Below, piece after piece: positions 19,132-29,670 of a stretch of DNA of 64,000 nt. The stretch lies in assembly GCA_049513715.1 (NCBI GenBank), contig JBEKVV010000002.1, positions 1 to 64,000 on the forward strand, given 5' to 3'. The translations under genes and the position numbers were made by a program. Under the pieces are notes generated by a model. That model had not been told where the DNA came from, ran no database searches, and worked only from the letters and a program-made list of their open reading frames with translations. This DNA comes from Candidatus Bathyarchaeia archaeon. GTDB lineage: Archaea; Thermoproteota; Bathyarchaeia; 40CM-2-53-6. The first letter of the stretch is position 1, and each line of letters opens with the position of its first letter.

Positions 19132-19884
19132 TTGTCGGTGTCACTGAACGTGAGCGACAACGATATTCCCGGGGGCCTATCCAAGGACCTCTGGCGTGAG
19201 GTCGTCAAAGCAATTGAAGATGCCATCCCACTCTACGACAACATAAACGACCTCATTTCATTCGGAAGAGCGCAGAAGGCTAGGATGTACGCAGTACAAA
19301 ACCTGGCACTAGCGGAGGGAGCGCGCGTTCTGGATGGCGGCATTGGCCCAGGCGCAACCTCAAAGCTCGTGTTATCAACGCTCAATTCGGGCCTATTGGT
19401 AGGGTTGGACGGTTCGGTGAGGCAACTCAAGGCCGCGAGGCAGAACTTGGCATACAACTCGAATCAGATGCTTGAGTTCGTTAGGGGGTCGTTTGAGTTC
19501 CTCCCGTTTCGGGACGAGTGCTTCGATGGAATCGTGACCTCCTTCGCCTTCAGAGATAGCTTAGACATGTCTAGGTCTATCAGCGAGTATTCGCGCGTAT
19601 GCGATGGCAAGGGAAGTTTCGCTATCGCGGACATCGCCAAACCCGACAACCAACTGAAGAGGGCTGGAGCGATGTGGTACATGCGTTACATTATGCCCCT
19701 AATCGCCAAAGTCGCCGTCCGGGGAAGAATTAGGGGCAACCCGTGGCGAATGATCGTCCCAACCTACATCTCACTGCCAACAACGAAGGTCATCGTATCC
19801 ATGGTGAAAGAGAAATTCGTGAAAGTCGAACTGAAAGAGTTCCTGTTAGGCGGCGCTATTGTCATAATCGGACGAAAATCTTGA
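19132..19884 (+). CDS. UbiE/MenG-like SAM-dependent methyltransferase
   Basis: YDNINDLISFG, VLDGGIGPG, LPFRDECFD, SFAFRD. Confidence 0.85.
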   Translation: MSVSLNVSDNDIPGGLSKDLWREVVKAIEDAIPLYDNINDLISFGRAQKARMYAVQNLALAEGARVLDGGIGPGATSKLVLSTLNSGLLVGLDGSVRQLKAARQNLAYNSNQMLEFVRGSFEFLPFRDECFDGIVTSFAFRDSLDMSRSISEYSRVCDGKGSFAIADIAKPDNQLKRAGAMWYMRYIMPLIAKVAVRGRIRGNPWRMIVPTYISLPTTKVIVSMVKEKFVKVELKEFLLGGAIVIIGRKS

Positions 19885-20247
19885 ATCAGAAACCTAAAAC
19901 GAGCACGACGGAAGCATTCTTCCTTGGTGCAAGGGACTTCAAACAACTTGAATGGCCGGGCATACCCACCCTTCAATTGGTGGAATCACCCTACTACTAC
20001 CTTTCATTCTCAGCGAGGAGGTAGTTGGTCGCCTGCGACCAAGCAGTTGGTCAGGAGCTGCCTGACGCAATCCGAAATAGCGGCATTTCACCCGTGAATA
20101 GGCTACATTTCAACGCATAATGGCAGCCAACGGGTAGTTCACCCTTTTCCCCAGAATGACGGGTATTGTCTTCACTGTGAAGCATTCTCCATTGGTGCTC
20201 ATGGTAAACGTTTTCTGCTGGATTGCATGAATTCATTTTGGTTTGAC

Positions 20248-20295
20248 ATGTCTTGGAAATACACTGACGAGTACTACAAGAATAAAGACGCCTAA
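20248..20295 (+). pseudogene. Displaced 5' end of the methyltransferase at 27887..28726 (attL side)
   Basis: ATG TCT TGG AAA TAC ACT GAC GAG TAC TAC AAG AAT = MSWKYTDEYYKN, joining in frame to YKNYTRQTWDEC at 27902 through shared TACAAGAA. Confidence 0.8.
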
Positions 20296-20324
20296 ATCTA
20301 CTTACCGTTATACTGAGAGTTCGA

Positions 20325-20888
20325 TTACACGTCGAAGCCTTGTTCTCGCATTTCTTCCACCGTTGGAATCTTCACTATCATACGCGGTTCCCCGTCTTTC
20401 GTTTTGTACGCCATAACCCAGAGGGCATTGAGATCGACATGTCTGCCGCCTGGTAAGGTGTGGCGTTCTGGAATGTTGACTTCTTTGAAGAATGGTTTCC
20501 CGTTGGCATCGAAGTCAATTGCGGGTGTTCCAAACCAGAAGGCTTTCTTGTGTACTCTTTGAACTTCATTCCATACTCGACGGAAATCTTTTCGCTTCTG
20601 AGCCTCGACATCGTTCTTAGAGACTTCGAGGCCGCGAGAAGTCTGTAAGAGGACACGTCCTAGTGCCTTGATGTGGTACTTCTTTTCTACATGGTCAACG
20701 GCTCCGTAGTCTTTCAACGGATTCATGTTTACGCTGAACCATCGCTCGGATATTTTCGCGGCGGACCTGATTTCCTTCCAGCTTGAGCCCTCTTCATTTT
20801 TGTCTAGGTGTTCAAGGATTTTGATTTGATATTCATTTGGCTTGAAGTTGGAAATCGTCTTCTTTTCTTTCATCTTCATTTGTGGCAC
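20325..20888 (-). CDS. Winged-helix transcriptional regulator (repressor-like)
   Basis: QIKILEHL..SSWKEIRSAAKISERWFSVNMNPL..YHIKALGR; divergent from the main element operon. Confidence 0.7.
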   Translation of the reverse strand: MPQMKMKEKKTISNFKPNEYQIKILEHLDKNEEGSSWKEIRSAAKISERWFSVNMNPLKDYGAVDHVEKKYHIKALGRVLLQTSRGLEVSKNDVEAQKRKDFRRVWNEVQRVHKKAFWFGTPAIDFDANGKPFFKEVNIPERHTLPGGRHVDLNALWVMAYKTKDGEPRMIVKIPTVEEMREQGFDV

Positions 20889-20890
20889 TT

Positions 20891-20940
20891 CAGTACAGTT
20901 GCTTTACTACAGTACAGTTCTTTACATTACCATTATAAAC
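20891..20940. promoter_or_regulatory. Divergent promoter with tandem operator-like repeats
   Basis: CAGTACAGTT(G)CTTTAC at 20891 and 20910, then TTATAAAC box at 20933. Confidence 0.55.
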
Positions 20941-20972
20941 GCTTTGGAAGTGTATTCAATGCTTGGATAGCC

Positions 20973-21086
20973 ATGGAACAATGGAAATACATTCGCATTA
21001 CTGAGGAAGTGCACGACAAATTAACTGGCTTAGGGAAGAAAGGCGAATCCTACGACCAAATTCTAAGGCGGGTTCTGCCTGAATGA
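20973..21086 (+). CDS. Small ribbon-helix-helix-like DNA-binding protein
   Basis: MEQWKYIRITEEVHDKLTGLGKKGESYDQILRRVL, typical archaeal K.GESYD.ILRR family. Confidence 0.75.
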   Translation: MEQWKYIRITEEVHDKLTGLGKKGESYDQILRRVLPE

Positions 21087-21178
21087 ACATCGCGTATAGT
21101 TGCCCGTTCTGCCCCTGGCGTAAGTCCTCGACAACGATTCCGGAAATTCGGGCGCACCTGGAGGAAAACCACCGTTGA
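21083..21178 (+). CDS. 31-aa C2H2 zinc-finger protein (absent from ORF track)
   Basis: MNIAYSCPFCPWRKSSTTIPEIRAHLEENHR*; ATGA and TTGA overlaps with both neighbours. Confidence 0.7.
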   Translation: MNIAYSCPFCPWRKSSTTIPEIRAHLEENHR

Positions 21179-21510
21179 GTAAATGCCCAAGTTGCGGAGC
21201 GATTCTCGAATTAGTAGTCGGCACCGATTACACGAAAGCGCAAGCCATCTTAGGCACTAAGGCTTCGGGAAGCGATCTCACCAATGAACAGCTAGCCGTT
21301 CTGAAGTGGAAACAATCGCAGAAGAGGGAGGCGCTTTCCACCCTACTCGTCACAACGGAGCTGCTTAACATCCCCATAGCCAAACTGCTCTATGAACGTT
21401 TGAAGTCATCCTCGAATTTGAGTTGGAAACTAGGAGAAATAACGTACAAACTCAGCAGAACCGACGCCGCGGAATTTCTACAACGCTGGTCACCAATTGC
21501 TGCTCGCTGA
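21175..21510 (+). CDS. Hypothetical protein with N-terminal CPSCG knuckle
   Basis: Translationally coupled in the element operon. Confidence 0.65.
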   Translation: MSKCPSCGAILELVVGTDYTKAQAILGTKASGSDLTNEQLAVLKWKQSQKREALSTLLVTTELLNIPIAKLLYERLKSSSNLSWKLGEITYKLSRTDAAEFLQRWSPIAAR

Positions 21511-21724
21511 ATGCGTGACCTGCCGAGATAATCCTGGCGAACGGGTTTGCCGCCACGGGCTTGGAATGTGGGCTGTCGTTAGACATGACGACATCACGGG
21601 GTTATGGTTCGACCTACACGGCCACATCCACACAAATCATAAGATGGCGATTCTTCCGGCCACGAAATACCAAGTCATCATTCTGCCTTCGCATAAGTCA
21701 CTCGTGCCAACGGAGATTACTTGA
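21497..21724 (+). CDS. Small Cys/His-rich hypothetical protein
   Basis: CVTC..C.H..HGHIH; overlaps both neighbours. Confidence 0.5.
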   Translation: MLLAECVTCRDNPGERVCRHGLGMWAVVRHDDITGLWFDLHGHIHTNHKMAILPATKYQVIILPSHKSLVPTEIT

Positions 21725-22944
21725 TGCTTGAAAATGAAATCGTTGAGTTCTCTCCCGAAAGCCGAGACAGCGCCCTGAAACTACTCAGAGAACCAAACCT
21801 ATGGAATACGATGGACCAGGAATTAGAGATCGCAATCAAAGAAGACTTGGAAGGACGGCAAGGAACCTTTGCGATTGAACTCACCGCGTTTCTACCTAAG
21901 CCCGCTCATCTAATGTTGCTGGGTTCAAGCGCCATCGGCAAAACTTGGCTAGCGAAGCAGACAAGCGCATTCATTCCCGTCGAATATGTGCAAACCCTAG
22001 GATCCTCTACGCAGAGGGCTTGGTTCTACTGCGGCGAAGCCATTTACAAACCACATCCCATAATTCCCATGAAACAAGTAATTGACTATTACAAGGTTGA
22101 TTGGCGAAACAAAGTTGTCATAATTCTTGACAACGTGAGGCCGGAAACAATCAAGGACCTCAAACCGATAATGAGCCATGACGGACCAGTCATCGAACTC
22201 CAAACCACCGAACGAACGCAAGGCGGATCATTGAAAACCCGACGCGTGAAAACGCTTGGCTGCCCGGCTTTCGTGAACTGTTCGACTTGGCTTCAATGGG
22301 GCGCCGAGCTAACCAGCCGCCATTACTACTTAAGCCCGAAGGATAGTCCGCAGAAGTATGAGGCCGCCGCCAACTATCTCGACCAGGAATTTACGACGGG
22401 GCAAGCGCCAACAAGTAAGATAATTCCAATAATTCATGATGCAATACGTTACTTAGTGGGTCAAAACCTCAAAACGGTAATTCACCCCAATGTGATCGGG
22501 AAACTGAGAGAACGGTTCACGTGGAAATCAGGCCGCGACGTCCGCGATTATGAACGGGCCGCAACAATCACACAGGCCGTCGCGTGGTTCCATGCCCTAC
22601 AAAGAGAGCGCACAGAGCAGGGCGACGTAATAGCGGATGAACGAGATCTAGCGATTGTGAACGGCTTCATAGAGCCCCTACTGCGAACAAGCCGGTACGG
22701 AACAAGCAACGAAGTGTTAGACTACTATGAACGCGTGCTGAAGCCCCTAGCCGCAAACGGAGATGTTCACCACGCAGACGCCGCCACAAAATATCTCCAA
22801 GTCTACGATCGGCCCATAAAACGCGACGAAATTTACCAATACAACACAGTCCTCGAAGGCTTAGGCCGAATCGAACTCATCCAAGACCCGCAAGACAAAC
22901 GACGCCGCCTCATACGAATAACGGACACGCAAACACAACTATGA
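21721..22944 (+). CDS. P-loop ATPase, putative replicative helicase/primase-associated protein with C-terminal wHTH
   Basis: GSSAIGKT Walker A, VIILDN Walker B, ELTSRHY and GRDVRD arginine motifs, QDPQDKRRRLIRI wing. Confidence 0.7.
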   Translation: MMLENEIVEFSPESRDSALKLLREPNLWNTMDQELEIAIKEDLEGRQGTFAIELTAFLPKPAHLMLLGSSAIGKTWLAKQTSAFIPVEYVQTLGSSTQRAWFYCGEAIYKPHPIIPMKQVIDYYKVDWRNKVVIILDNVRPETIKDLKPIMSHDGPVIELQTTERTQGGSLKTRRVKTLGCPAFVNCSTWLQWGAELTSRHYYLSPKDSPQKYEAAANYLDQEFTTGQAPTSKIIPIIHDAIRYLVGQNLKTVIHPNVIGKLRERFTWKSGRDVRDYERAATITQAVAWFHALQRERTEQGDVIADERDLAIVNGFIEPLLRTSRYGTSNEVLDYYERVLKPLAANGDVHHADAATKYLQVYDRPIKRDEIYQYNTVLEGLGRIELIQDPQDKRRRLIRITDTQTQL

Positions 22945-23171
22945 GGAATGGAAGTGTGCCAATGAAACAGGAAATAGATGCTAATAGAAAGTGTGTCATT
23001 GAAGAATCAATCATAACACCACACAATCACCTAGCATCTACTTTTCACAAATACTCTCCCGGGAAGTGTGTTATTGTGAGAGCTGGTTCTTGTTGGGGTT
23101 TGGTACACCGTTCGAGTCCAATTTATTGGATGGAGTGTTACTATGATAATATTCGTTTGGTTGTGGTGTAA

Positions 23172-23519
23172 ATGAGCGAAGAACAACGGAAAACAGGCGG
23201 GCAACCGGACAACTTGAACGCCATGAAAGGCATAGGCGTCGAGCTCAAGAACTATGATCTGAACCAGGTTTCCGACTGCTTCCGCCTATTGCAGGTCATA
23301 ACGGAAGCCGTTCTTCAAGGACGCATAGGCGCAAGGGCCGCGGGCGCAGCAAACAACGCAATACGAATCATCCTCAGCTATCACAGCGATATTGCCCAAG
23401 TCGCAGAGAACAAGCGATTAATCGAGGAATCTAAGCGTCGAATCAAGGAGCTTGAGGCCAAACTGGACGAATTACAGCAACCTGTTTCACGCGTGAAACA
23501 AGAGGCGAATCAGCCTTGA
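23172..23519 (+). CDS. Putative terminase small subunit
   Basis: GGQPDNLNAMK resembles the GGQPGNxNA N-terminus of TerS-like proteins; C-terminal coiled coil; overlaps TerL start. Confidence 0.6.
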   Translation: MSEEQRKTGGQPDNLNAMKGIGVELKNYDLNQVSDCFRLLQVITEAVLQGRIGARAAGAANNAIRIILSYHSDIAQVAENKRLIEESKRRIKELEAKLDELQQPVSRVKQEANQP

Positions 23520-24973
23520 GCCTAGCTCTACAGGAACAAGAGGCCCATGAGATCCGCTTAGCCATAGACCACGTTCTATCTAGGCTTCCCACGGAGCGCA
23601 TAGACTTCAAGAAACTAGCGAAGGGTTGGCCTGCCTTCCAATCTGGGTTAATGGTCTATTCAGGCTTGAAGAAAGGCGAACCATTCAACCCCTTCCCCTA
23701 CCAAACTAGGGCGTTTGATTCCTTCTTTCTAAATGAGAAGACCGCCCTGCAATGGTCGAGGCAGACGGGTAAAACCGTGTGTACGGGCGCGTATGTTGTT
23801 TACCTTGCGAAGCAGGTTCCTGGGTTAACTGCGCTGGTTGCTTCATTCAGGCATGAGCAAAGCGTTCTATTGGTGGATGCTGTTTATGGCTGGTCAAAGT
23901 GGCACCGAGATCCAAGCTATGAAGCGAACCTTCCACGTCGACGGGCTCAAACCCACGTCTATTTCGAGAACGGTTCTAAGTTGTTCGCGGTTCCTCACGG
24001 TGAGGCCTCGATGGGGCGAACCTTGGATTTGCTAATCTTTGACGAAAGCCAAGAGATTCCGGACGAAGACCTACGGGCCAGTTCGCCAACTACCGCGGCA
24101 AGTGGTGGGCGTAGAATCTGGATTGGGACCGCGTTTGCGCCGGAAGGGTTCTGGTACGAGATCACGCAGGCCCCGCGGAAGCACGGTTTCAATTTGATTC
24201 GGGTTCCATATCAAGATGCTCTAGCGCCTAATGGTCCGGTGATTTCTGAGGCGGTTGAAGCGGACCGTTTGCTTTTGACGCCTGCTCAATGGAAAATGAA
24301 CTACGAGCTTACAGCCATTGCGGGCGTTAACAGGTTCTTTGAACGCGACCGCATCCTGGCCTGTCACAGTGTTGGACCGTTAGAGCCGATTCCTAAAGAC
24401 GCGCTATGGCTTGCAGGGCACGACCACGCAATAACACACGATGAATCTGTTTTGATGGCCGGTCCTTTGGTTAATGGTGTTTGGCATCAGAACCTTGTTG
24501 TGAGTTTTCCGCGAGGTATGCCTTTGAATCGGCAAGCCGAACGCGCCCTAACCGTTCTACCGGCAAACTGCACACTACACATAGATTCAACCGGCGAGGC
24601 GGGCGTTCAAATGCTAAGCGAATACGCTAGGCTTTCCGTGAACGTTCGCGCTTTCGACTACGGCAGGGCGGACGCGAAACCGCACCTAATGAGCCAGCTA
24701 TGGCAATGGATCCAAAACGGCAAGGTCCGAATCTATGACCAAGCCACAATAGACCAGCTCATAGCTTTCCGGTTCCATCTTTCAAGCACCGGGCATGAGA
24801 TTTACGGAGATGCAAGCCACGCGGACGACCGGGTGAACGCCCTTGCCTTGGCGATTGAAGGGGCCGCGCAAACACGCGAAGACAAGGGCGAATTTTCAGC
24901 CCTTTTCGTTGGCGGCGTGAATGATGGATCGGACCTAGCGGGCGCGATTGAGCGATGGAATGAGGTGATGTAA
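23516..24973 (+). CDS. terL: Terminase large subunit
   Basis: PFPYQ adenine motif, SRQTGKT Walker A, LLIFDESQ Walker B, IGT coupling motif, RNase H acids GHD..D, IDSTG, HADDRVNALALA. Confidence 0.9.
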   Translation: MSLALQEQEAHEIRLAIDHVLSRLPTERIDFKKLAKGWPAFQSGLMVYSGLKKGEPFNPFPYQTRAFDSFFLNEKTALQWSRQTGKTVCTGAYVVYLAKQVPGLTALVASFRHEQSVLLVDAVYGWSKWHRDPSYEANLPRRRAQTHVYFENGSKLFAVPHGEASMGRTLDLLIFDESQEIPDEDLRASSPTTAASGGRRIWIGTAFAPEGFWYEITQAPRKHGFNLIRVPYQDALAPNGPVISEAVEADRLLLTPAQWKMNYELTAIAGVNRFFERDRILACHSVGPLEPIPKDALWLAGHDHAITHDESVLMAGPLVNGVWHQNLVVSFPRGMPLNRQAERALTVLPANCTLHIDSTGEAGVQMLSEYARLSVNVRAFDYGRADAKPHLMSQLWQWIQNGKVRIYDQATIDQLIAFRFHLSSTGHEIYGDASHADDRVNALALAIEGAAQTREDKGEFSALFVGGVNDGSDLAGAIERWNEVM

Positions 24974-24976
24974 GCC

Positions 24977-25150
24977 TTGAAGAAACTGTTAGAGGACGTT
25001 CTGCCGCATCCTTGCCCTGAATGTGGTGGTCGCTTAATCCTCACGAAATGGGTTCCCGAAACCGAGCTGGAAAAGAAACCGGTGATTCAAGTTCAATGTG
25101 ACCGCTGCCGCAAATTCCTAGCAGGCCAAGAGGAAGCGTTCTCAAAATGA
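24977..25150 (+). CDS. 57-aa zinc-ribbon protein (absent from ORF track)
   Basis: MKKLLEDVLPHPCPECGG..VQCDRCRKF; GAGGTGA upstream; ATGA overlap with next ORF. Confidence 0.7.
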   Translation: MKKLLEDVLPHPCPECGGRLILTKWVPETELEKKPVIQVQCDRCRKFLAGQEEAFSK

Positions 25151-25500
25151 CAATCTCCACCGCTGTTTACGTGATGCAAGTTCTACAGAAAATGCGTAGC
25201 TTAGATGAACAGATGTCGCAATTGCGCAAGCACCTTCTTGAAGTGAACGCGGCGGAATGTCTTACGCCTCATTGTGGAGAACCGGCCCGGTGGCCTAGTC
25301 GATGGTGTCGTAACTGCCGGATCGAGCGTACGCGGATGCTTGGAAGGGAACGCGCAAGACAGTTCAGAGTCAACAAACGTAACGCGCGTAACGCACCCCT
25401 TACCCCTTCTATTGGGACGAATAGCAATGCACAACCCATTCAAGAAACAACCAATCTCGCCCAACCCTGCACCATTCGAGACCAAGGAAACCCTAGTTAG
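25147..25500 (+). CDS. Hypothetical Cys-containing basic protein
   Basis: CLTPHC..WCRNCR followed by Arg-rich helix. Confidence 0.55.
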   Translation: MTISTAVYVMQVLQKMRSLDEQMSQLRKHLLEVNAAECLTPHCGEPARWPSRWCRNCRIERTRMLGRERARQFRVNKRNARNAPLTPSIGTNSNAQPIQETTNLAQPCTIRDQGNPS

Positions 25501-25771
25501 ATTTCTTGGCTCACTAGCTGGGAAACTTGTAACCGGCGAAGTTTCCGTTCCACAGGCTGAAGCAACCATTCGCATTATCGGCAAATTCTACGAAGCATTG
25601 ACATTGAAAGATTTCGCGCTCGCCATCATCACGCCTCCCGAACCTGAACCAGAACCGAAATCTAAAGCCTACAACGTGACAACGGACGAACAATCAGCCA
25701 AAATGGACGCCCAAGCGAAAGCCGGTAATGAACTTCTCAATCGTTTCAGCGAACGCGGAGTAATTCAGTGA
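25427..25771 (+). CDS. Hypothetical protein, weakly similar to the TerS-like ORF
   Basis: LVRFLGSLAGKLVTGEVSVPQAEATIRII versus FRLLQVITEAVLQGRIGARAAGAANNAIRII; ATG at 25427. Confidence 0.5.
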   Translation: MHNPFKKQPISPNPAPFETKETLVRFLGSLAGKLVTGEVSVPQAEATIRIIGKFYEALTLKDFALAIITPPEPEPEPKSKAYNVTTDEQSAKMDAQAKAGNELLNRFSERGVIQ

Positions 25772-25775
25772 AGGG

Positions 25776-26060
25776 GTGAGAACACAAATGAATGAAGAAG
25801 AACGCAAACTATCCGAAGCCGAATTTGAAAAAGGCCTAGGCGACATGGTTAAGACGCTAAAGATGCTGAGTCGCGTTTCTCCGGCTTGGAAGAAAAAGGT
25901 AACAAGGAAAATCGCCGAAGCATTCAGCGAAGATGAAGGCGAATCAGAAAGCGAGGCTAAGGCAGCGCGACCGGTGAGAACCGAAGACGGAATGACAAAG
26001 GCGTTCAACGCAGAAATAAAACCGGCTTTGCAAAAGCGTTTCGGAGTCACGCACCAGTGA
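25776..26060 (+). CDS. Hypothetical helical protein
   Basis: Co-directional with the operon, SD-like GGGGTGA before the internal ATG. Confidence 0.6.
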   Translation: MRTQMNEEERKLSEAEFEKGLGDMVKTLKMLSRVSPAWKKKVTRKIAEAFSEDEGESESEAKAARPVRTEDGMTKAFNAEIKPALQKRFGVTHQ

Positions 26061-26089
26061 CCGGAAATCTGGTTGGAGGTGAAATGTGA

Positions 26090-26641
26090 ATGAGTGCAAT
26101 TAGCATCCCGCAAGAACCCTTCGACATGAAGAGCATAGGCTTCGATCCCAGCCAAGAAATTCCATTGGAAAACATCAACCCTGGTAGGCTTTCAGCTACC
26201 GCGAAAGTCGAATTGACCGTCCTACACGAAGACGGTTCGATGTTACGCGAACTTTTCATCGAAAAGGTTGGCCGAAGTCAAGAGGAAATAGCCAAGGACA
26301 TCAAAAAGGCCGAAGCTCAAGGACTTTACCAAAACAGCGAAGATTGGCAACGAATCAGAATGCTTGAACGACGCGAAAAACCGAAAGCGTACATTTTCCG
26401 ATACAAAGGCCTACTCAAAGAACTCAACGACTACATCAACGGTGTGTCGGTGGATACTGGCCAGGGCATCAAAACAGTCAGCGAAGGACACCCACGGACT
26501 TGGATCATAGGACGAAATGATTCATTCGGAAACTTAGACATTGAACAAAACTACGACAAAATTCTCAAGTACCACAACGATAGCGGCCGATTCAGCGAAA
26601 TCGTTGAAACCTCCTGGGATTTCGTGAAGAAGCAACGTTAA
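26090..26641 (+). CDS. Hypothetical protein (183 aa)
   Basis: Strong GGAGGTGA SD upstream; no recognised motif. Confidence 0.7.
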   Translation: MSAISIPQEPFDMKSIGFDPSQEIPLENINPGRLSATAKVELTVLHEDGSMLRELFIEKVGRSQEEIAKDIKKAEAQGLYQNSEDWQRIRMLERREKPKAYIFRYKGLLKELNDYINGVSVDTGQGIKTVSEGHPRTWIIGRNDSFGNLDIEQNYDKILKYHNDSGRFSEIVETSWDFVKKQR

Positions 26642-26720
26642 GGTGACTGGCGATGACGGCCCGCTTTTTTGTTAGGTTTACCAGCTGGGCCCAGCCTTCA
26701 CATTTTCGAGGTGAAATCAA

Positions 26721-26816
26721 ATGGTGAATGAATTTACATGCGGCGATTGCGGCCAGAAAGGTTCTTTGAACAAGGGGCTTGAGGAAGCAATCAAGCTCTG
26801 GCTCAAAGAGGCTTGA
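26721..26816 (+). CDS. 31-aa ORF, possibly a chimeric remnant
   Basis: GAGGTGA SD; MVNEFTCGDCGQKGSLNKGLEEAIKLWLKEA*, half a zinc knuckle plus an RHH-like tail. Confidence 0.35.
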   Translation: MVNEFTCGDCGQKGSLNKGLEEAIKLWLKEA

Positions 26817-26824
26817 GGGAAGGG

Positions 26825-27868
26825 CTAGTTCTCTGAAACCTTTATGCCCTTCACGGCCTCAACGAACTTCTTGAACCCTTCCGGGTCTTTCTGCATCGCG
26901 TTCTGCATAGCCACCCACAGATCCGTCTCGGGAACAACAACCGTCCCAGCGTAGACCTTCCTAAGCTCCGACCACATCCACGGCTCATCTCGATAGCATT
27001 TCTCGTAACCGCGCTGGTCGAGGATATGCCCTATTGCGAACTCTCCGACTTCATAAGGAACCTTGCTGAGCGTGCATCTTGTCTTGAAGCAGTCGCGCAT
27101 TTCGTGGACCGAGATATGGCCTTGAGTTGGTGGAATTGGTGCACGTTTCAAAGCGGTGTGAAAAGCTGAGCCCAGATATTGAACCATTAGGTTGTAGTGC
27201 TCAAAGCTGAAGGGGTGTCCTTTCTCGGTGCTGAACGGTAAAGTCACACCGGATGCCACGATCTCTTTTAGGAGTGTTACTGGAATCAGGGAAAAGTAGG
27301 GTTGTGGGTTCGTCTTGCGGTCCTGGAAGTTGAACCTGAAATATTCTTGGCTCGGGTTGCTGGCAAGATAGGCTTTCACGCGTTCCCAGGTCTCGGGTGA
27401 GTTGAATTTCAGAAGTTCACTTATGCCCCAGCCGCAATGAAGCATGAGTTTCAGCATGACGTTGTAGGGTTTCGAGGCGGAATTACAGACCGCTTGAGCC
27501 TCTTCCCAGCTTAAGCTGCCTGCCTGCCTTGTGCTCTTGGGATGCTTCAGGCGGTCCGCGGGTGGATAAATCCCGTGGAAGCGAACCCAGTTCTTCATCG
27601 CCATTAGGGCCAAGTGTTTGCCGACTGGGGTTAAGCCGTTCGAGTTTTTGGCGTGTGTCCAGAAGGCGTTAACGTCCTGCTTCGCTTGGCTCAAAGCCTC
27701 TTGAGGCGTTAGGGCCATGCCGCTGAGTAGTCTTCGCAAATAGTGGCGGTAGGATTTCACCGCGTGTTTGCTTAGTTCTTGATTTTGGATCTTGCTTTCA
27801 ATCCACTGGTCGATGAGGGGGGATTCTTTCGCCCATGATTGGTCGCTCAAGGTTCTTACCTGCACCAT
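26825..27868 (-). CDS. Tyrosine recombinase/integrase
   Basis: SAM-like N-domain (VKSYRHYLRRL), HCGWGISELL box I, RKT, HEMRD, AIGH and GYEK box II motifs. Confidence 0.88.
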   Translation of the reverse strand: MVQVRTLSDQSWAKESPLIDQWIESKIQNQELSKHAVKSYRHYLRRLLSGMALTPQEALSQAKQDVNAFWTHAKNSNGLTPVGKHLALMAMKNWVRFHGIYPPADRLKHPKSTRQAGSLSWEEAQAVCNSASKPYNVMLKLMLHCGWGISELLKFNSPETWERVKAYLASNPSQEYFRFNFQDRKTNPQPYFSLIPVTLLKEIVASGVTLPFSTEKGHPFSFEHYNLMVQYLGSAFHTALKRAPIPPTQGHISVHEMRDCFKTRCTLSKVPYEVGEFAIGHILDQRGYEKCYRDEPWMWSELRKVYAGTVVVPETDLWVAMQNAMQKDPEGFKKFVEAVKGIKVSEN

Positions 27869-27886
27869 CTACGGTATAACTTACTT

Positions 27887-28726
27887 ATGAATGTACGCTT
27901 TTACAAGAACTACACTCGGCAGACATGGGACGAATGCGCAGAAAAGTATGTGCCCTTACAGGGCCAGCTTGTCCCGTTTCACAGAATCCTTCTGGATAAC
28001 ATAAAACCACGACCGGCTGAGCGAGTACTTGACGTTTGCACTGGTCCAGGCGAGCCAGCTATGACCATCGCCGCAATGGTTGCACCAAACGGCCAAGTCG
28101 TAGGAATCGATCTATCCGCCAACATGACGGAAATCGCGACGAAAACCGCTGCAAAACGCCAGCTCCAAAACATTCAATTCCTCACGATGGATGCCGAAAA
28201 AATCGAATTGCCGCCGGCAAGCTTCGATCTCGCGGTATCGTGCTTCGGATTTCAAATCGTAACTGAGCCTGAGGTCGCTGCCCGGGAAATCCTTCGCGTC
28301 CTGAAACCAAATGGGCGTGCAGGCTTCACAGTTTGGAGTACGGGAGACAGAGCCACCGCCATAGATGTCCTGATTGGTCCCATGCTTGAACACGCGACGC
28401 CCGATGAGAACGGCTACTTACCCACACCATACGAGCTCGGGGGACCGGGCGAATTGGTCGAGATGCTGCAAAAGGTAGGGTTCGAGAAAACCAAAGAGGT
28501 ACGAACGCCTGGCGTTTGGACTGCCCATACCGCCGAGGAATACCTGACAATGATACTTGAGGGGACACCGCTCGGGCATTCCTTAAGCGAAGAGGACCCT
28601 GATGTCCAAAAGCTAATTGTGAAGAAGGCTCGTGAGAACATCGAACGTTATGAAACCGCCCAGGGCGTCAGTATTCCAACTGAATGCGTAGTCGTCCTCG
28701 CATCCAAGAGCACAAGCACCTACTAA
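27887..28726 (+). CDS. Class I SAM-dependent methyltransferase (integration target, N-terminus supplied by element)
   Basis: VLDVCTGPGEP, GIDLS, MDAE, SFDLAVS, LKPNGR; ATG 27887 lies inside the element. Confidence 0.9.
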   Translation: MNVRFYKNYTRQTWDECAEKYVPLQGQLVPFHRILLDNIKPRPAERVLDVCTGPGEPAMTIAAMVAPNGQVVGIDLSANMTEIATKTAAKRQLQNIQFLTMDAEKIELPPASFDLAVSCFGFQIVTEPEVAAREILRVLKPNGRAGFTVWSTGDRATAIDVLIGPMLEHATPDENGYLPTPYELGGPGELVEMLQKVGFEKTKEVRTPGVWTAHTAEEYLTMILEGTPLGHSLSEEDPDVQKLIVKKARENIERYETAQGVSIPTECVVVLASKSTSTY

Positions 28727-28824
28727 GTTGGTGGAGCTTCCATTTTCCTGAGTGAACGATTCATTAATCAGGTTTTGAACCAATGCTTCTTCCAAAGTGC
28801 TAGACTCTGGGACAAAGAACGCAG

Positions 28825-29670
28825 TTGGGACAGATGGAATTCAAGGAACTTGGAAAGACCGGAGTGAAGGTTCCAGTTCTCGGCTTGGGAACATGGGGCA
28901 TAGGAGGCCGCAGTAGTAGGTACACTGCTGCGGATGCTCAGGCCGTGCAGGCCCTACGGATGGGCTTGGATCTGGGGATGCTCTTCATCGATACCGCGGA
29001 GTTTTATGGGCATGGGCATTCGGAAGAAATAGTTGCGGACGCAATAGGCGACAGGCGAGAAAGTGTCTTCCTTGCAACAAAAGTTTCACCCGAACATTTC
29101 GGGCACGATGACGTGTTGAAGGCCTGCGAAGCGAGCCTGAAACGGCTCAAGGTTAGCTATGTAGATCTCTACCAGCTTCACTGGCCCAACCCAAGCATTC
29201 CAATTTCGGAAACGATGAAAGCTATGGAGCGTTTGGTTCTTGAGGGAAAGGTCCGGCACATTGGTGTAAGCAACTTCTCAGTTCGTCAGACCCGGGAGGC
29301 ACAAGCATCCCTCTCCAAAGCCACATTAGCCGCGAATCAAGTCGATTACAGCCTTCTTGACAGGTCAATCGAGAAGGACTTGCTACAATACTCTCAGAGG
29401 GAACACATCACCGTCATCGCTTACAGCCCCCTCGCGAAAAGCCAAATACCGAAAGGCGGGCGGGGAGGGAAGTGGCAAATCCTCGATGATATCGCAAAGA
29501 GAAACGAGAAGACTAGGTCACAAGTAGCCTTGAATTGGTTAATCGCTAAAGAGGGGGTCGTAACTATCCCGAAGGCAGCCTCGCTTGAACACGTGAAGGA
29601 GAACGCAGGTGCCGTCGGCTGGGCCTTGAGCGGGGAGGATCAGAAGGCTTTGGAAGACGCCTTCACGTAA
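28825..29670 (+). CDS. Aldo/keto reductase
   Basis: LGLGTW, IDTAEFYG, ATKV, DLYQLHWP, IGVSNF, AYSPL, IPKA. Confidence 0.95.
   Translation: MGQMEFKELGKTGVKVPVLGLGTWGIGGRSSRYTAADAQAVQALRMGLDLGMLFIDTAEFYGHGHSEEIVADAIGDRRESVFLATKVSPEHFGHDDVLKACEASLKRLKVSYVDLYQLHWPNPSIPISETMKAMERLVLEGKVRHIGVSNFSVRQTREAQASLSKATLAANQVDYSLLDRSIEKDLLQYSQREHITVIAYSPLAKSQIPKGGRGGKWQILDDIAKRNEKTRSQVALNWLIAKEGVVTIPKAASLEHVKENAGAVGWALSGEDQKALEDAFT

What the first reader, a model, noticed from the sequence alone, without database searches (positions are those of the whole stretch)
20248..27920. Integration inside a protein-coding gene with a built-in replacement N-terminus
Removing 20283-27909 rejoins MSWKYTDEY-YKN-YTRQTWDEC in frame. 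In the integrated state the element provides ATG 27887 (MNVRF-YKNYTRQ), so the methyltransferase frame survives. The reconstructed sites are symmetric around a 6-bp CAAGAA spacer: attB cgagt-acta-CAAGAA-ctac-actcg, attP ttta-CAAGAA-taaa. Most archaeal integrases target tRNA genes, so a CDS target with gene rescue is unusual. It could also change control of the host gene depending on excision state.
Basis: partly seen in the sequence, partly recalled or inferred. Interest (0 to 1): 0.72.

Follow-up and report, generated by a model that had tools for sequence, protein, structure and literature searches.

The report
Terminase-carrying element splits archaeal methyltransferase gene
A 7.6-kb mobile element sits inside the first codons of a methyltransferase gene of a peat archaeon and leaves an in-frame start codon, but that codon is likely a by-product of the element's own integrase promoter rather than a built-in repair, and the element itself, with a viral DNA-packaging motor and no capsid, is likely a parasite of tailed viruses.

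Summary
An 8-bp repeat (20275, 27902) bounds 7,627 bp; removing it gives a 283-aa SAM methyltransferase that matches empty alleles from other assemblies at 98-99%. ATG 27887 is in frame. 'Gene rescue' is not shown and is doubtful: the ATG is the reverse complement of part of a TATA-like box that sits 39-51 nt before the integrase start in 9 of 11 clade members examined; the new MNVRF start loses nearly invariant W3, Y5 and Y9; no promoter-grade site lies upstream; and a relative splits a glyoxalase gene with no replacement start, although another supplies an in-frame GTG. Replacing a gene's 5' end is known in bacteria (SXT/prfC, dusA); I found archaeal reports only for 3' ends, and this scan noted similar cases in other Bathyarchaeia (unchecked notes). 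New variant of a known kind; interest 0.45.

The parts
20202..20217 (+). Native BRE/TATA-like promoter of the methyltransferase, left outside the element
   Evidence: AANNNTTTT site 46 nt before ATG 20248, score 7.2; same site at -47 to -49 in 7 of 9 orthologues
20248..20295 (+). Stranded native 5' end of the gene; reads 12 native codons, then 3 element codons and a stop
20275..20282 (+). attL repeat TACAAGAA (probable 6-bp overlap CAAGAA, 20277-20282)
20283..27909 (.). Integrated element, 7,627 bp, 49.9% G+C
20325..20888 (-). Winged-helix-type transcription regulator, divergent from the main operon
   Evidence: phrog_2440 E 8.6e-6
20973..21086 (+). 37-aa antitoxin/RHH-like small regulator
   Evidence: PF24434 2e-5, PF02697 0.002, both under cut-off; paralogues in genome
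21175..21724 (+). Two small ORFs (111 and 75 aa), shared with the related element in L063 (64% and 33%)
21721..22944 (+). 407-aa P-loop ATPase, probable replication helicase-like protein (function inferred)
   Evidence: Walker A GSSAIGKT; AAA_5 E 0.03; 22% to the ATPase in front of the terminase genes in L079, E 2e-18
23172..23519 (+). Probable small terminase subunit (inferred from position and a recalled GGQPxN motif; no family hit)
   Evidence: directly before TerL here and in 5 of 7 related loci, 56-65% identity; Atlas look-alikes 0.87-0.89 in viral/archaeal clusters, lead only
23516..24973 (+). Large terminase subunit, ATPase and nuclease motifs intact
   Evidence: phrog_2 E 4e-20; Foldseek to G20c TerL nuclease E 4.7e-10, TM 0.75 by target; dN/dS 0.07-0.20 in unsaturated pairs
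24977..26641 (+). Zn-ribbon ORF (57 aa) and four ORFs without family hits (117, about 114, 94, 183 aa); none recognised as portal or capsid
26825..27850 (-). Tyrosine recombinase, probably starting at TTG 27850 (341 aa; ATG 27868 would give 347 aa); Gly148 in place of the box-I Arg, R184-K185, H255, R258, H281, Y288 conserved
   Evidence: NF040815 E 3e-10; alignment of 29; closest relatives start (M/L)TDLI or MSLVSDLI
27845..27860 (+). Best candidate outward promoter for ATG 27887; weak
   Evidence: score 3.3 at -42, below the median 3.7 of random coding windows
27886..27891 (-). TTCATA box, probable TATA box of the integrase; its complement contains ATG 27887-27889
   Evidence: 41 nt before TTG 27850; equivalent box in 9 of 11 clade members
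27902..27909 (+). attR repeat TACAAGAA
27887..28726 (+). Class I SAM-dependent methyltransferase in the integrated state: 5 element codons (MNVRF) plus native residues 10-283
   Evidence: Methyltransf_25 E 2e-22; model pLDDT 92, first helix starts at residue 7; fold like GtmA/TmtA

Best explanation
A 7.6-kb element with an intact tyrosine recombinase gene sits at codons 10-12 of a dispensable SAM methyltransferase gene; the in-frame ATG at its end is likely a by-product of the integrase's TATA box, so the gene is probably weakened or silenced rather than repaired, and the element is likely a satellite that would package its DNA into the heads of a tailed virus with its own terminase. Shown: the junctions, the empty allele in other assemblies, the open frame, the overlap of the ATG with a box conserved before the integrase start, the loss of conserved residues, the terminase and its purifying selection, the lack of recognisable portal or capsid. 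Inferred: the integrase recombines a circular attP with a short, partly symmetric site over a 6-bp overlap; members of this clade keep integrase and promoter within about 50 bp of the crossover, so whatever letters the promoter has face the host gene; TTTATA gives no start on the other strand, the TTCATA variant gives ATG. After integration the native promoter stays 7.6 kb away in front of a 15-codon stub. Excision, presumably on helper-virus infection, would restore the native gene.
For: Box at -39 to -51 in 9 of 11 members examined; TTCATA variant in 3 (window, G000:C1 element, L062), and in the other two the ATG is not followed by a host frame. In-frame start before a stop in 17 of 60 trial frames at such ends, ATG in 9 of 60 (crude, frames not independent). 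L060 splits a glyoxalase gene at codon 32-33 with an in-frame stop five codons before the site and no new start; an intact orthologue runs through. W3 88/91, Y5 89/91, Y9 87/91 in orthologues. Promoter scores: native 7.2, candidate 3.3. Close orthologues in only 9 of 22 same-genus genomes (67-100% complete), so loss is tolerable. Terminase: (8 relative clusters, 71-80%); swapped replication genes in front of the same TerS-TerL pair; no Phage_portal or Phage_capsid match in the genome.
Against: The promoter model is weak (median 4.8 upstream of genes against 3.7 in coding DNA) and the candidate site lies at almost the native spacing (-42 against -46), so low expression from ATG 27887 is not excluded. 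A second clade member (L063) also has an in-frame start (GTG, 7 codons before the site) and a third (G000:C5) keeps the host ATG inside its 17-bp repeat: 3 of 4 gene-start or in-gene cases leave an open frame. The integrated allele is intact, with no stop or frameshift. Start codons of the integrases were chosen by eye for 11 of about 26 loci. No helper virus, virion or excised circle was seen; related terminase contigs are short (1.4-7.2 kb), so capsid genes could lie beyond their ends.
Confidence: 0.55

Rival explanations
1. True rescue, as with SXT/prfC and dusA elements: the element supplies a weak outward promoter inside the integrase's 5' end and ATG 27887, giving a working 279-aa enzyme; the frame was selected because lysogens keep the gene.
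For: Frame open; F replaces Y9 and helix 1 from residue 10 on is kept; candidate site at -42 resembles the native promoter; L063 and G000:C5 keep open frames; a second species cluster has an alternative N-terminus in 2 of 3 members (P0019, P0304 against P0303); unchecked notes report similar cases in other Bathyarchaeia.
Against: New start has no similarity to the lost residues, unlike the dusA case (61% over 35 aa); ATG explained by the TATA variant; counter-example L060; no Shine-Dalgarno-like stretch before the ATG; gene patchy in the genus.
Confidence: 0.3
2. The element is a stranded relic of a head-tailed provirus that lost its structural genes, as proposed for NitKor-E1; the terminase has no current role.
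For: No portal, capsid or tail recognised; only the integrated form in 8 of 8 runs laid; published reading of NitKor-E1.
Against: Both att sites, integrase and terminase intact; terminase clade conserved at 71-80% with dN/dS 0.07-0.20 and only about 25% identity to the two IMG/VR hits; same compact order in L079.
Confidence: 0.2
3. A regulated gene switch (active-lysogeny type): controlled excision turns the full methyltransferase on.
For: Precise excision would rebuild the gene behind its conserved promoter.
Against: No empty or circular form of this strain in 8 runs, at contig depths of 10-478 (contigs drop rare variants); most strains of the species simply lack the element; the clade uses many unrelated targets.
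Confidence: 0.07
4. The 8-bp match is chance or an assembly error.
For: 8-mers recur (8 copies in the window).
Against: Orthologue N-termini, empty alleles, and single contigs spanning both junctions in 8 runs (which may include this DNA's source).
Confidence: 0.01

Closest known systems
SXT/R391 ICEs at prfC and dusA-specific elements such as IMEVchUSA3 (bioRxiv 10.1101/2021.06.18.448947, passages; PMC5812530, passages)
   Same: Tyrosine-recombinase integration in the 5' end of a coding gene, native 5' piece stranded, frame reopened by an element start codon.
   Different: There a new promoter and expression were measured and the new N-terminus resembles the old one (61% over 35 aa for dusA); here 5 unrelated residues, no clear promoter, archaeal host, and the clade has no fixed target gene.
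Cryptic integrated elements of Thaumarchaeota, NitEve-E2 and NitKor-E1 (PMC6563490, passages)
   Same: Short att sites, integration in coding genes (14 of 68), gene end replaced (NitEve-E2); NitKor-E1 has integrase, TerS and TerL and no other viral gene.
   Different: All 14 coding targets there are 3'-distal; NitKor-E1 was a single case read as a relic, whereas this terminase pair forms a conserved family. Sequence kinship to NitKor-E1 was not tested.
Bacterial phage satellites (PICI, VEIME; PMC9618062, passages; general PICI layout recalled)
   Same: Small att-bounded element with integrase, divergent regulators, replication-type ATPase, packaging gene, no capsid.
   Different: In the passages read satellites carry TerS and rely on the helper's TerL; this one has its own TerL. 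Described archaeal satellites (pSSVx, pSSVi, SRCEs) use spindle-shaped viruses (bioRxiv 10.1101/2025.02.15.638363, passages).
Head-tailed viruses of Bathyarchaeia, 'Fuxiviridae' and 'Kunpengviridae' (bioRxiv 10.1101/2023.08.24.554615, passages)
   Same: Terminase of the same superfamily; possible helper type in this host class.
   Different: About 32 kb or more with capsid, portal and tail; the element has none of these.

Membership tests
5'-end-replacing integrative elements (SXT/prfC, dusA type) | Site-specific integration inside the 5' coding end by a tyrosine recombinase | tested here: met
5'-end-replacing integrative elements (SXT/prfC, dusA type) | Element supplies an in-frame start codon | tested here: met
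   ATG 27887
5'-end-replacing integrative elements (SXT/prfC, dusA type) | New N-terminus resembles the displaced one | tested here: not met
   MNVRF for 9 native residues; W3, Y5, D7, E8 lost
5'-end-replacing integrative elements (SXT/prfC, dusA type) | Element supplies a promoter | tested here: inconclusive
   best site 3.3 against native 7.2, weak model
5'-end-replacing integrative elements (SXT/prfC, dusA type) | Host gene stays expressed and active | not testable with these tools
   no RNA holder listed
5'-end-replacing integrative elements (SXT/prfC, dusA type) | One conserved target gene with conserved replacement across the family | tested here: not met
   targets: methyltransferase, GNAT, glyoxalase, DUF58 start, metK upstream region; no replacement in L060
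PICI-like satellite of tailed viruses | Small att-bounded element with integrase, divergent regulators, replication-type gene | tested here: met
   replication role of the ATPase is inferred
PICI-like satellite of tailed viruses | Packaging gene(s) without capsid, portal or tail | tested here: met
   TerL and probable TerS; four ORFs stay unassigned
PICI-like satellite of tailed viruses | Excision, replication and packaging on helper infection | not testable with these tools
   only contigs available; no excised form; no match in IMG/VR for integrase or ATPase
Caudoviricetes provirus | Large terminase | tested here: met
Caudoviricetes provirus | HK97-fold capsid and portal | tested here: not met
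   none in element or, by two Pfam models, in the genome
SSV-type (split) archaeal integrase elements | attP inside the integrase gene, tRNA target | tested here: not met
   integrase whole, att about 50 bp upstream, no Rfam match 19500-29000

The most novel reading that the evidence does not exclude
An undescribed family of Bathyarchaeia satellites of head-tailed viruses that carry a complete terminase of their own (TerS plus TerL) but no capsid, and integrate with an Arg-less tyrosine recombinase at gene starts, where the integrase's TATA box doubles as a start codon for the interrupted host gene; helper infection would excise the element and restore the native enzyme.
Probability: 0.25. Interest if true: 0.75.

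Novelty: new variant of a known kind. Interest (0 to 1): 0.45.

Why it matters
It extends 5'-end integration, known from bacteria, to archaea with a clean empty-versus-occupied pair, and it shows how an apparent 'replacement start' can arise for free from an integrase promoter, a caution for similar calls. The terminase-only cargo, conserved in several relatives, makes the open question about NitKor-E1 (relic or satellite) testable and points to satellites of archaeal tailed viruses, for which I found no description in the papers searched.

Tried and rejected
IMG/VR scans with the integrase, the methyltransferase and the ATPase found nothing; the terminase alignment gave 2 distant loci there and 2 distant bacterial loci in GTDB contigs; among 401 class genomes no close terminase relative outside G000. 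The arm pattern TTACWTATGAAYGT-N4-TTTT hit only the two elements it was built from in 59 family genomes, so it adds no independent cases. No RNA holder listed; 8 of 24 DNA runs laid, contigs only. Atlas search of the 183-aa ORF gave no usable hit; PDB search of the ATPase gave nothing credible. The terminase model is poor outside the nuclease domain (mean pLDDT 49). Positional base profile upstream of 164 genes showed no sharp promoter peak. att sites could not be fixed for L058, L059, L061, L062, L064-L071, L079, L143-L149 and three further G000 integrases (part's output was cut); they are not in the target tally. G019 has both a clade integrase and the methyltransferase 3 kb apart, but the gene is intact and unrelated to that element. 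Repeat search inside the element gave only chance-level pairs. DNA around P0019/P0304 and P0061 could not be obtained. Paper searches; none listed an archaeal 5'-end replacement or a satellite of archaeal tailed viruses; PMC13626063 and PMC11529989 passages added nothing on this; the TIGER 'regulated gene integrity' paper was not held and no supplements were read, so archaeal cases may be listed there or in Table S2 of PMC6563490.
Full report
Observation. The repeat TACAAGAA lies at 20275-20282 and 27902-27909. Removing 20283-27909 gives one 283-codon frame from ATG 20248; in the integrated state ATG 27887 opens a 279-aa frame, and the stranded 5' end reads 15 codons to a stop. The repeat alone proves little (8 copies in the window). 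The proof is comparative: 102 of 120 listed homologues have W.Y..[DE]YY at the N-terminus, the motif occurs once in the genome, at the left junction, and 9 of 11 members of the gene's own 90% cluster begin with the native peptide while 2 begin MNVRF. So empty and occupied alleles both exist in this species. Eight of 24 listed peat and wetland runs were laid; each holds the whole stretch in one contig, and none shows an empty or circular form of this strain; 4 of 8 hold a low-depth relative that crosses the site without the element (these runs may include the source of this DNA and contigs drop rare variants). The host is probably a Bathyarchaeia archaeon, inferred from source names of homologues.

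Host gene. A class I SAM-dependent methyltransferase with a confident model (pLDDT 92; helix 1 spans residues 7-20) closest in fold to small-molecule methyltransferases such as GtmA; substrate not determined. Close orthologues are in 9 of 22 same-genus genomes of 67-100% completeness, and the downstream aldo-keto reductase is syntenic in 2 of 9 short loci. In 91 orthologues W3 (88), Y5 (89), Y9 (87) and Y10 (89) are nearly invariant. The crossover falls in codons 10-12, so MNVRF replaces nine residues and keeps none of W3, Y5, D7, E8; Y9 becomes F.

Integrase and sites. The gene at 26825-27850 (minus) is a tyrosine recombinase of a clade with 76 representatives at E up to 1e-10, found mainly in this family (12 of 58 other family genomes, 2 of the remaining class genomes among 401 searched). 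G148 stands where the box-I arginine is expected in 29 of 29 aligned sequences, while R184-K185, H255, R258, H281 and Y288 are conserved; an earlier scan note had described this clade. The sibling element in the same genome (57% identical integrase, 10.3 kb, 12-bp repeat upstream of metK) has the same layout: 6-bp spacer between 4-bp inverted arms and a shared arm motif at the same distance. L060 has only a 6-bp repeat.

Where the ATG comes from. Reading the integrase strand, a TT(T/C)AT(A/G/C) box lies 39-51 nt before the probable start codon in 9 of 11 clade members for which I could call a start by eye; closest relatives confirm a start at the TTG rather than the upstream ATG. This is the position and sequence of an archaeal TATA box (established knowledge). 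In the window it reads TTCATA at 27891-27886, and ATG 27887 is the complement of its CAT. The same variant, hence the same ATG, occurs in the metK sibling, where a stop follows after six codons, and in L062, where no host frame follows. At such ends a start precedes the first stop in 17 of 60 trial frames (ATG in 9; crude). A motif learnt from 704 upstream regions scores the native promoter 7.2 at -46, with the same site in 7 of 9 orthologues, and the best site before ATG 27887 only 3.3, under the median of coding DNA (3.7); the model is weak and that site has nearly native spacing, so low expression remains possible. An outward transcript from the TATA box itself would start beyond the ATG (inference from usual spacing).

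Other targets of the clade. Five sites could be fixed: this one; the metK upstream region; the start codon of a DUF58 gene, kept inside a 17-bp repeat (G000:C5); a GNAT gene directly after its ATG, with an in-frame element GTG seven codons upstream (L063; orthologues start at the same residues); and a glyoxalase gene at codon 32-33 with an in-frame stop and no new start (L060; intact orthologue L167). So the clade often lands at gene starts, an open frame is left in 3 of 4 gene cases, but it is not a rule. A second species cluster of the methyltransferase has another foreign N-terminus in 2 of 3 members; its DNA could not be fetched.

Cargo. The element runs: regulator (minus), small RHH-like gene, two small ORFs, a 407-aa P-loop ATPase, a doubtful 76-aa ORF, a 115-aa ORF, a 485-aa large terminase, a Zn ribbon, four unknown ORFs, integrase. 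The terminase call rests on phrog_2 (4e-20), a profile hit to the G20c nuclease (3.5e-4) and a fold match (4.7e-10). Eight relative clusters are 71-80% identical; seven non-identical metagenome loci were found, five with the 115-aa gene directly upstream, with different replication genes in front (primase-helicase in L077, a related ATPase in L079). dN/dS is 0.07-0.20 in pairs that are not saturated. L079 shows integrase, regulator, small genes, ATPase and the terminase pair within 7.2 kb. No portal or capsid was recognised in the element, in 11 ORFs scanned from the related loci (short contigs), or by two Pfam models in the genome.

Mechanism and odds. Most likely (0.55) the element entered as a circle by 6-bp-overlap recombination, separated a dispensable gene from its promoter, and left an open frame by way of its own promoter box; it would spread by packaging its DNA into a helper's heads. 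True rescue has 0.3, a provirus relic 0.2 (this concerns the cargo and overlaps the others), a regulated switch 0.07.

Comparison. [quoted passage not shown] In Thaumarchaeota 14 of 68 elements sit in coding genes, all 3'-distal, one replaces a stop codon, and NitKor-E1 has TerS and TerL alone, read as a relic (passages). Archaeal satellites described so far use spindle-shaped viruses (passages); marine bacterial satellites carry TerS (passages); tailed viruses of Bathyarchaeia exist (passages). Eight searches gave no archaeal 5' replacement and no satellite of archaeal tailed viruses; subscription papers and supplements were not seen. Unchecked notes of this scan report 5' insertions with element start codons in other Bathyarchaeia and read the metK sibling as a satellite.

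Verdict. Observation confirmed, interpretation partly supported, new variant of a known kind, interest 0.45; the terminase-bearing satellite reading (0.25 for the full novel case) would deserve 0.75.

Noticed in passing
G000:C1:374478-384751: Sibling 10.3-kb element upstream of metK: 57% identical integrase, Cdc6/Orc1-like gene, homologue of the probable TerS (31%), 616-aa adhesin- or tail-like ORF, no TerL.
   Followed up: partly
G000:C5:85608-98097: 12.5-kb element of the same integrase clade whose 17-bp repeat contains the ribosome-binding stretch and ATG of a DUF58 gene.
   Followed up: partly
L063:4665-17830 (G017:C5): 13.2-kb element inserted right after the ATG of a GNAT acetyltransferase gene, supplying an in-frame GTG; shares three genes with the window's element; its integrase is frameshifted.
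   Followed up: yes
L060:2224-11017 (G066:C17): 8.8-kb element splitting a glyoxalase/VOC gene at codon 32-33 over a 6-bp repeat, with no replacement start.
   Followed up: yes
proteins P0019, P0304 versus P0303; P0061 versus P0302: Other species clusters of the same methyltransferase with altered N-termini (10 foreign residues before Y5 in two assemblies; a 6-residue shorter start in one), possibly further insertions at this gene's 5' end.
   Followed up: partly
window 26825-27850: Integrase clade with Gly in place of the box-I Arg in 29 of 29 aligned sequences and an invariant Arg-Lys at 184-185.
   Followed up: partly
window 27875-27881 and 20307-20313: 7-bp inverted pair (GTATAAC / GTTATAC) almost symmetric about the attP core, possible arm or accessory-protein sites.
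   Followed up: no
L076:4896-5396: 166-aa ORF after the terminase in a related locus that looks to me (recalled, no family hit) like the end of a tail or baseplate protein.
   Followed up: no
window 20248-20330: The native promoter now points into the element's left end, antisense to the 3' end of the element's regulator gene.
   Followed up: no
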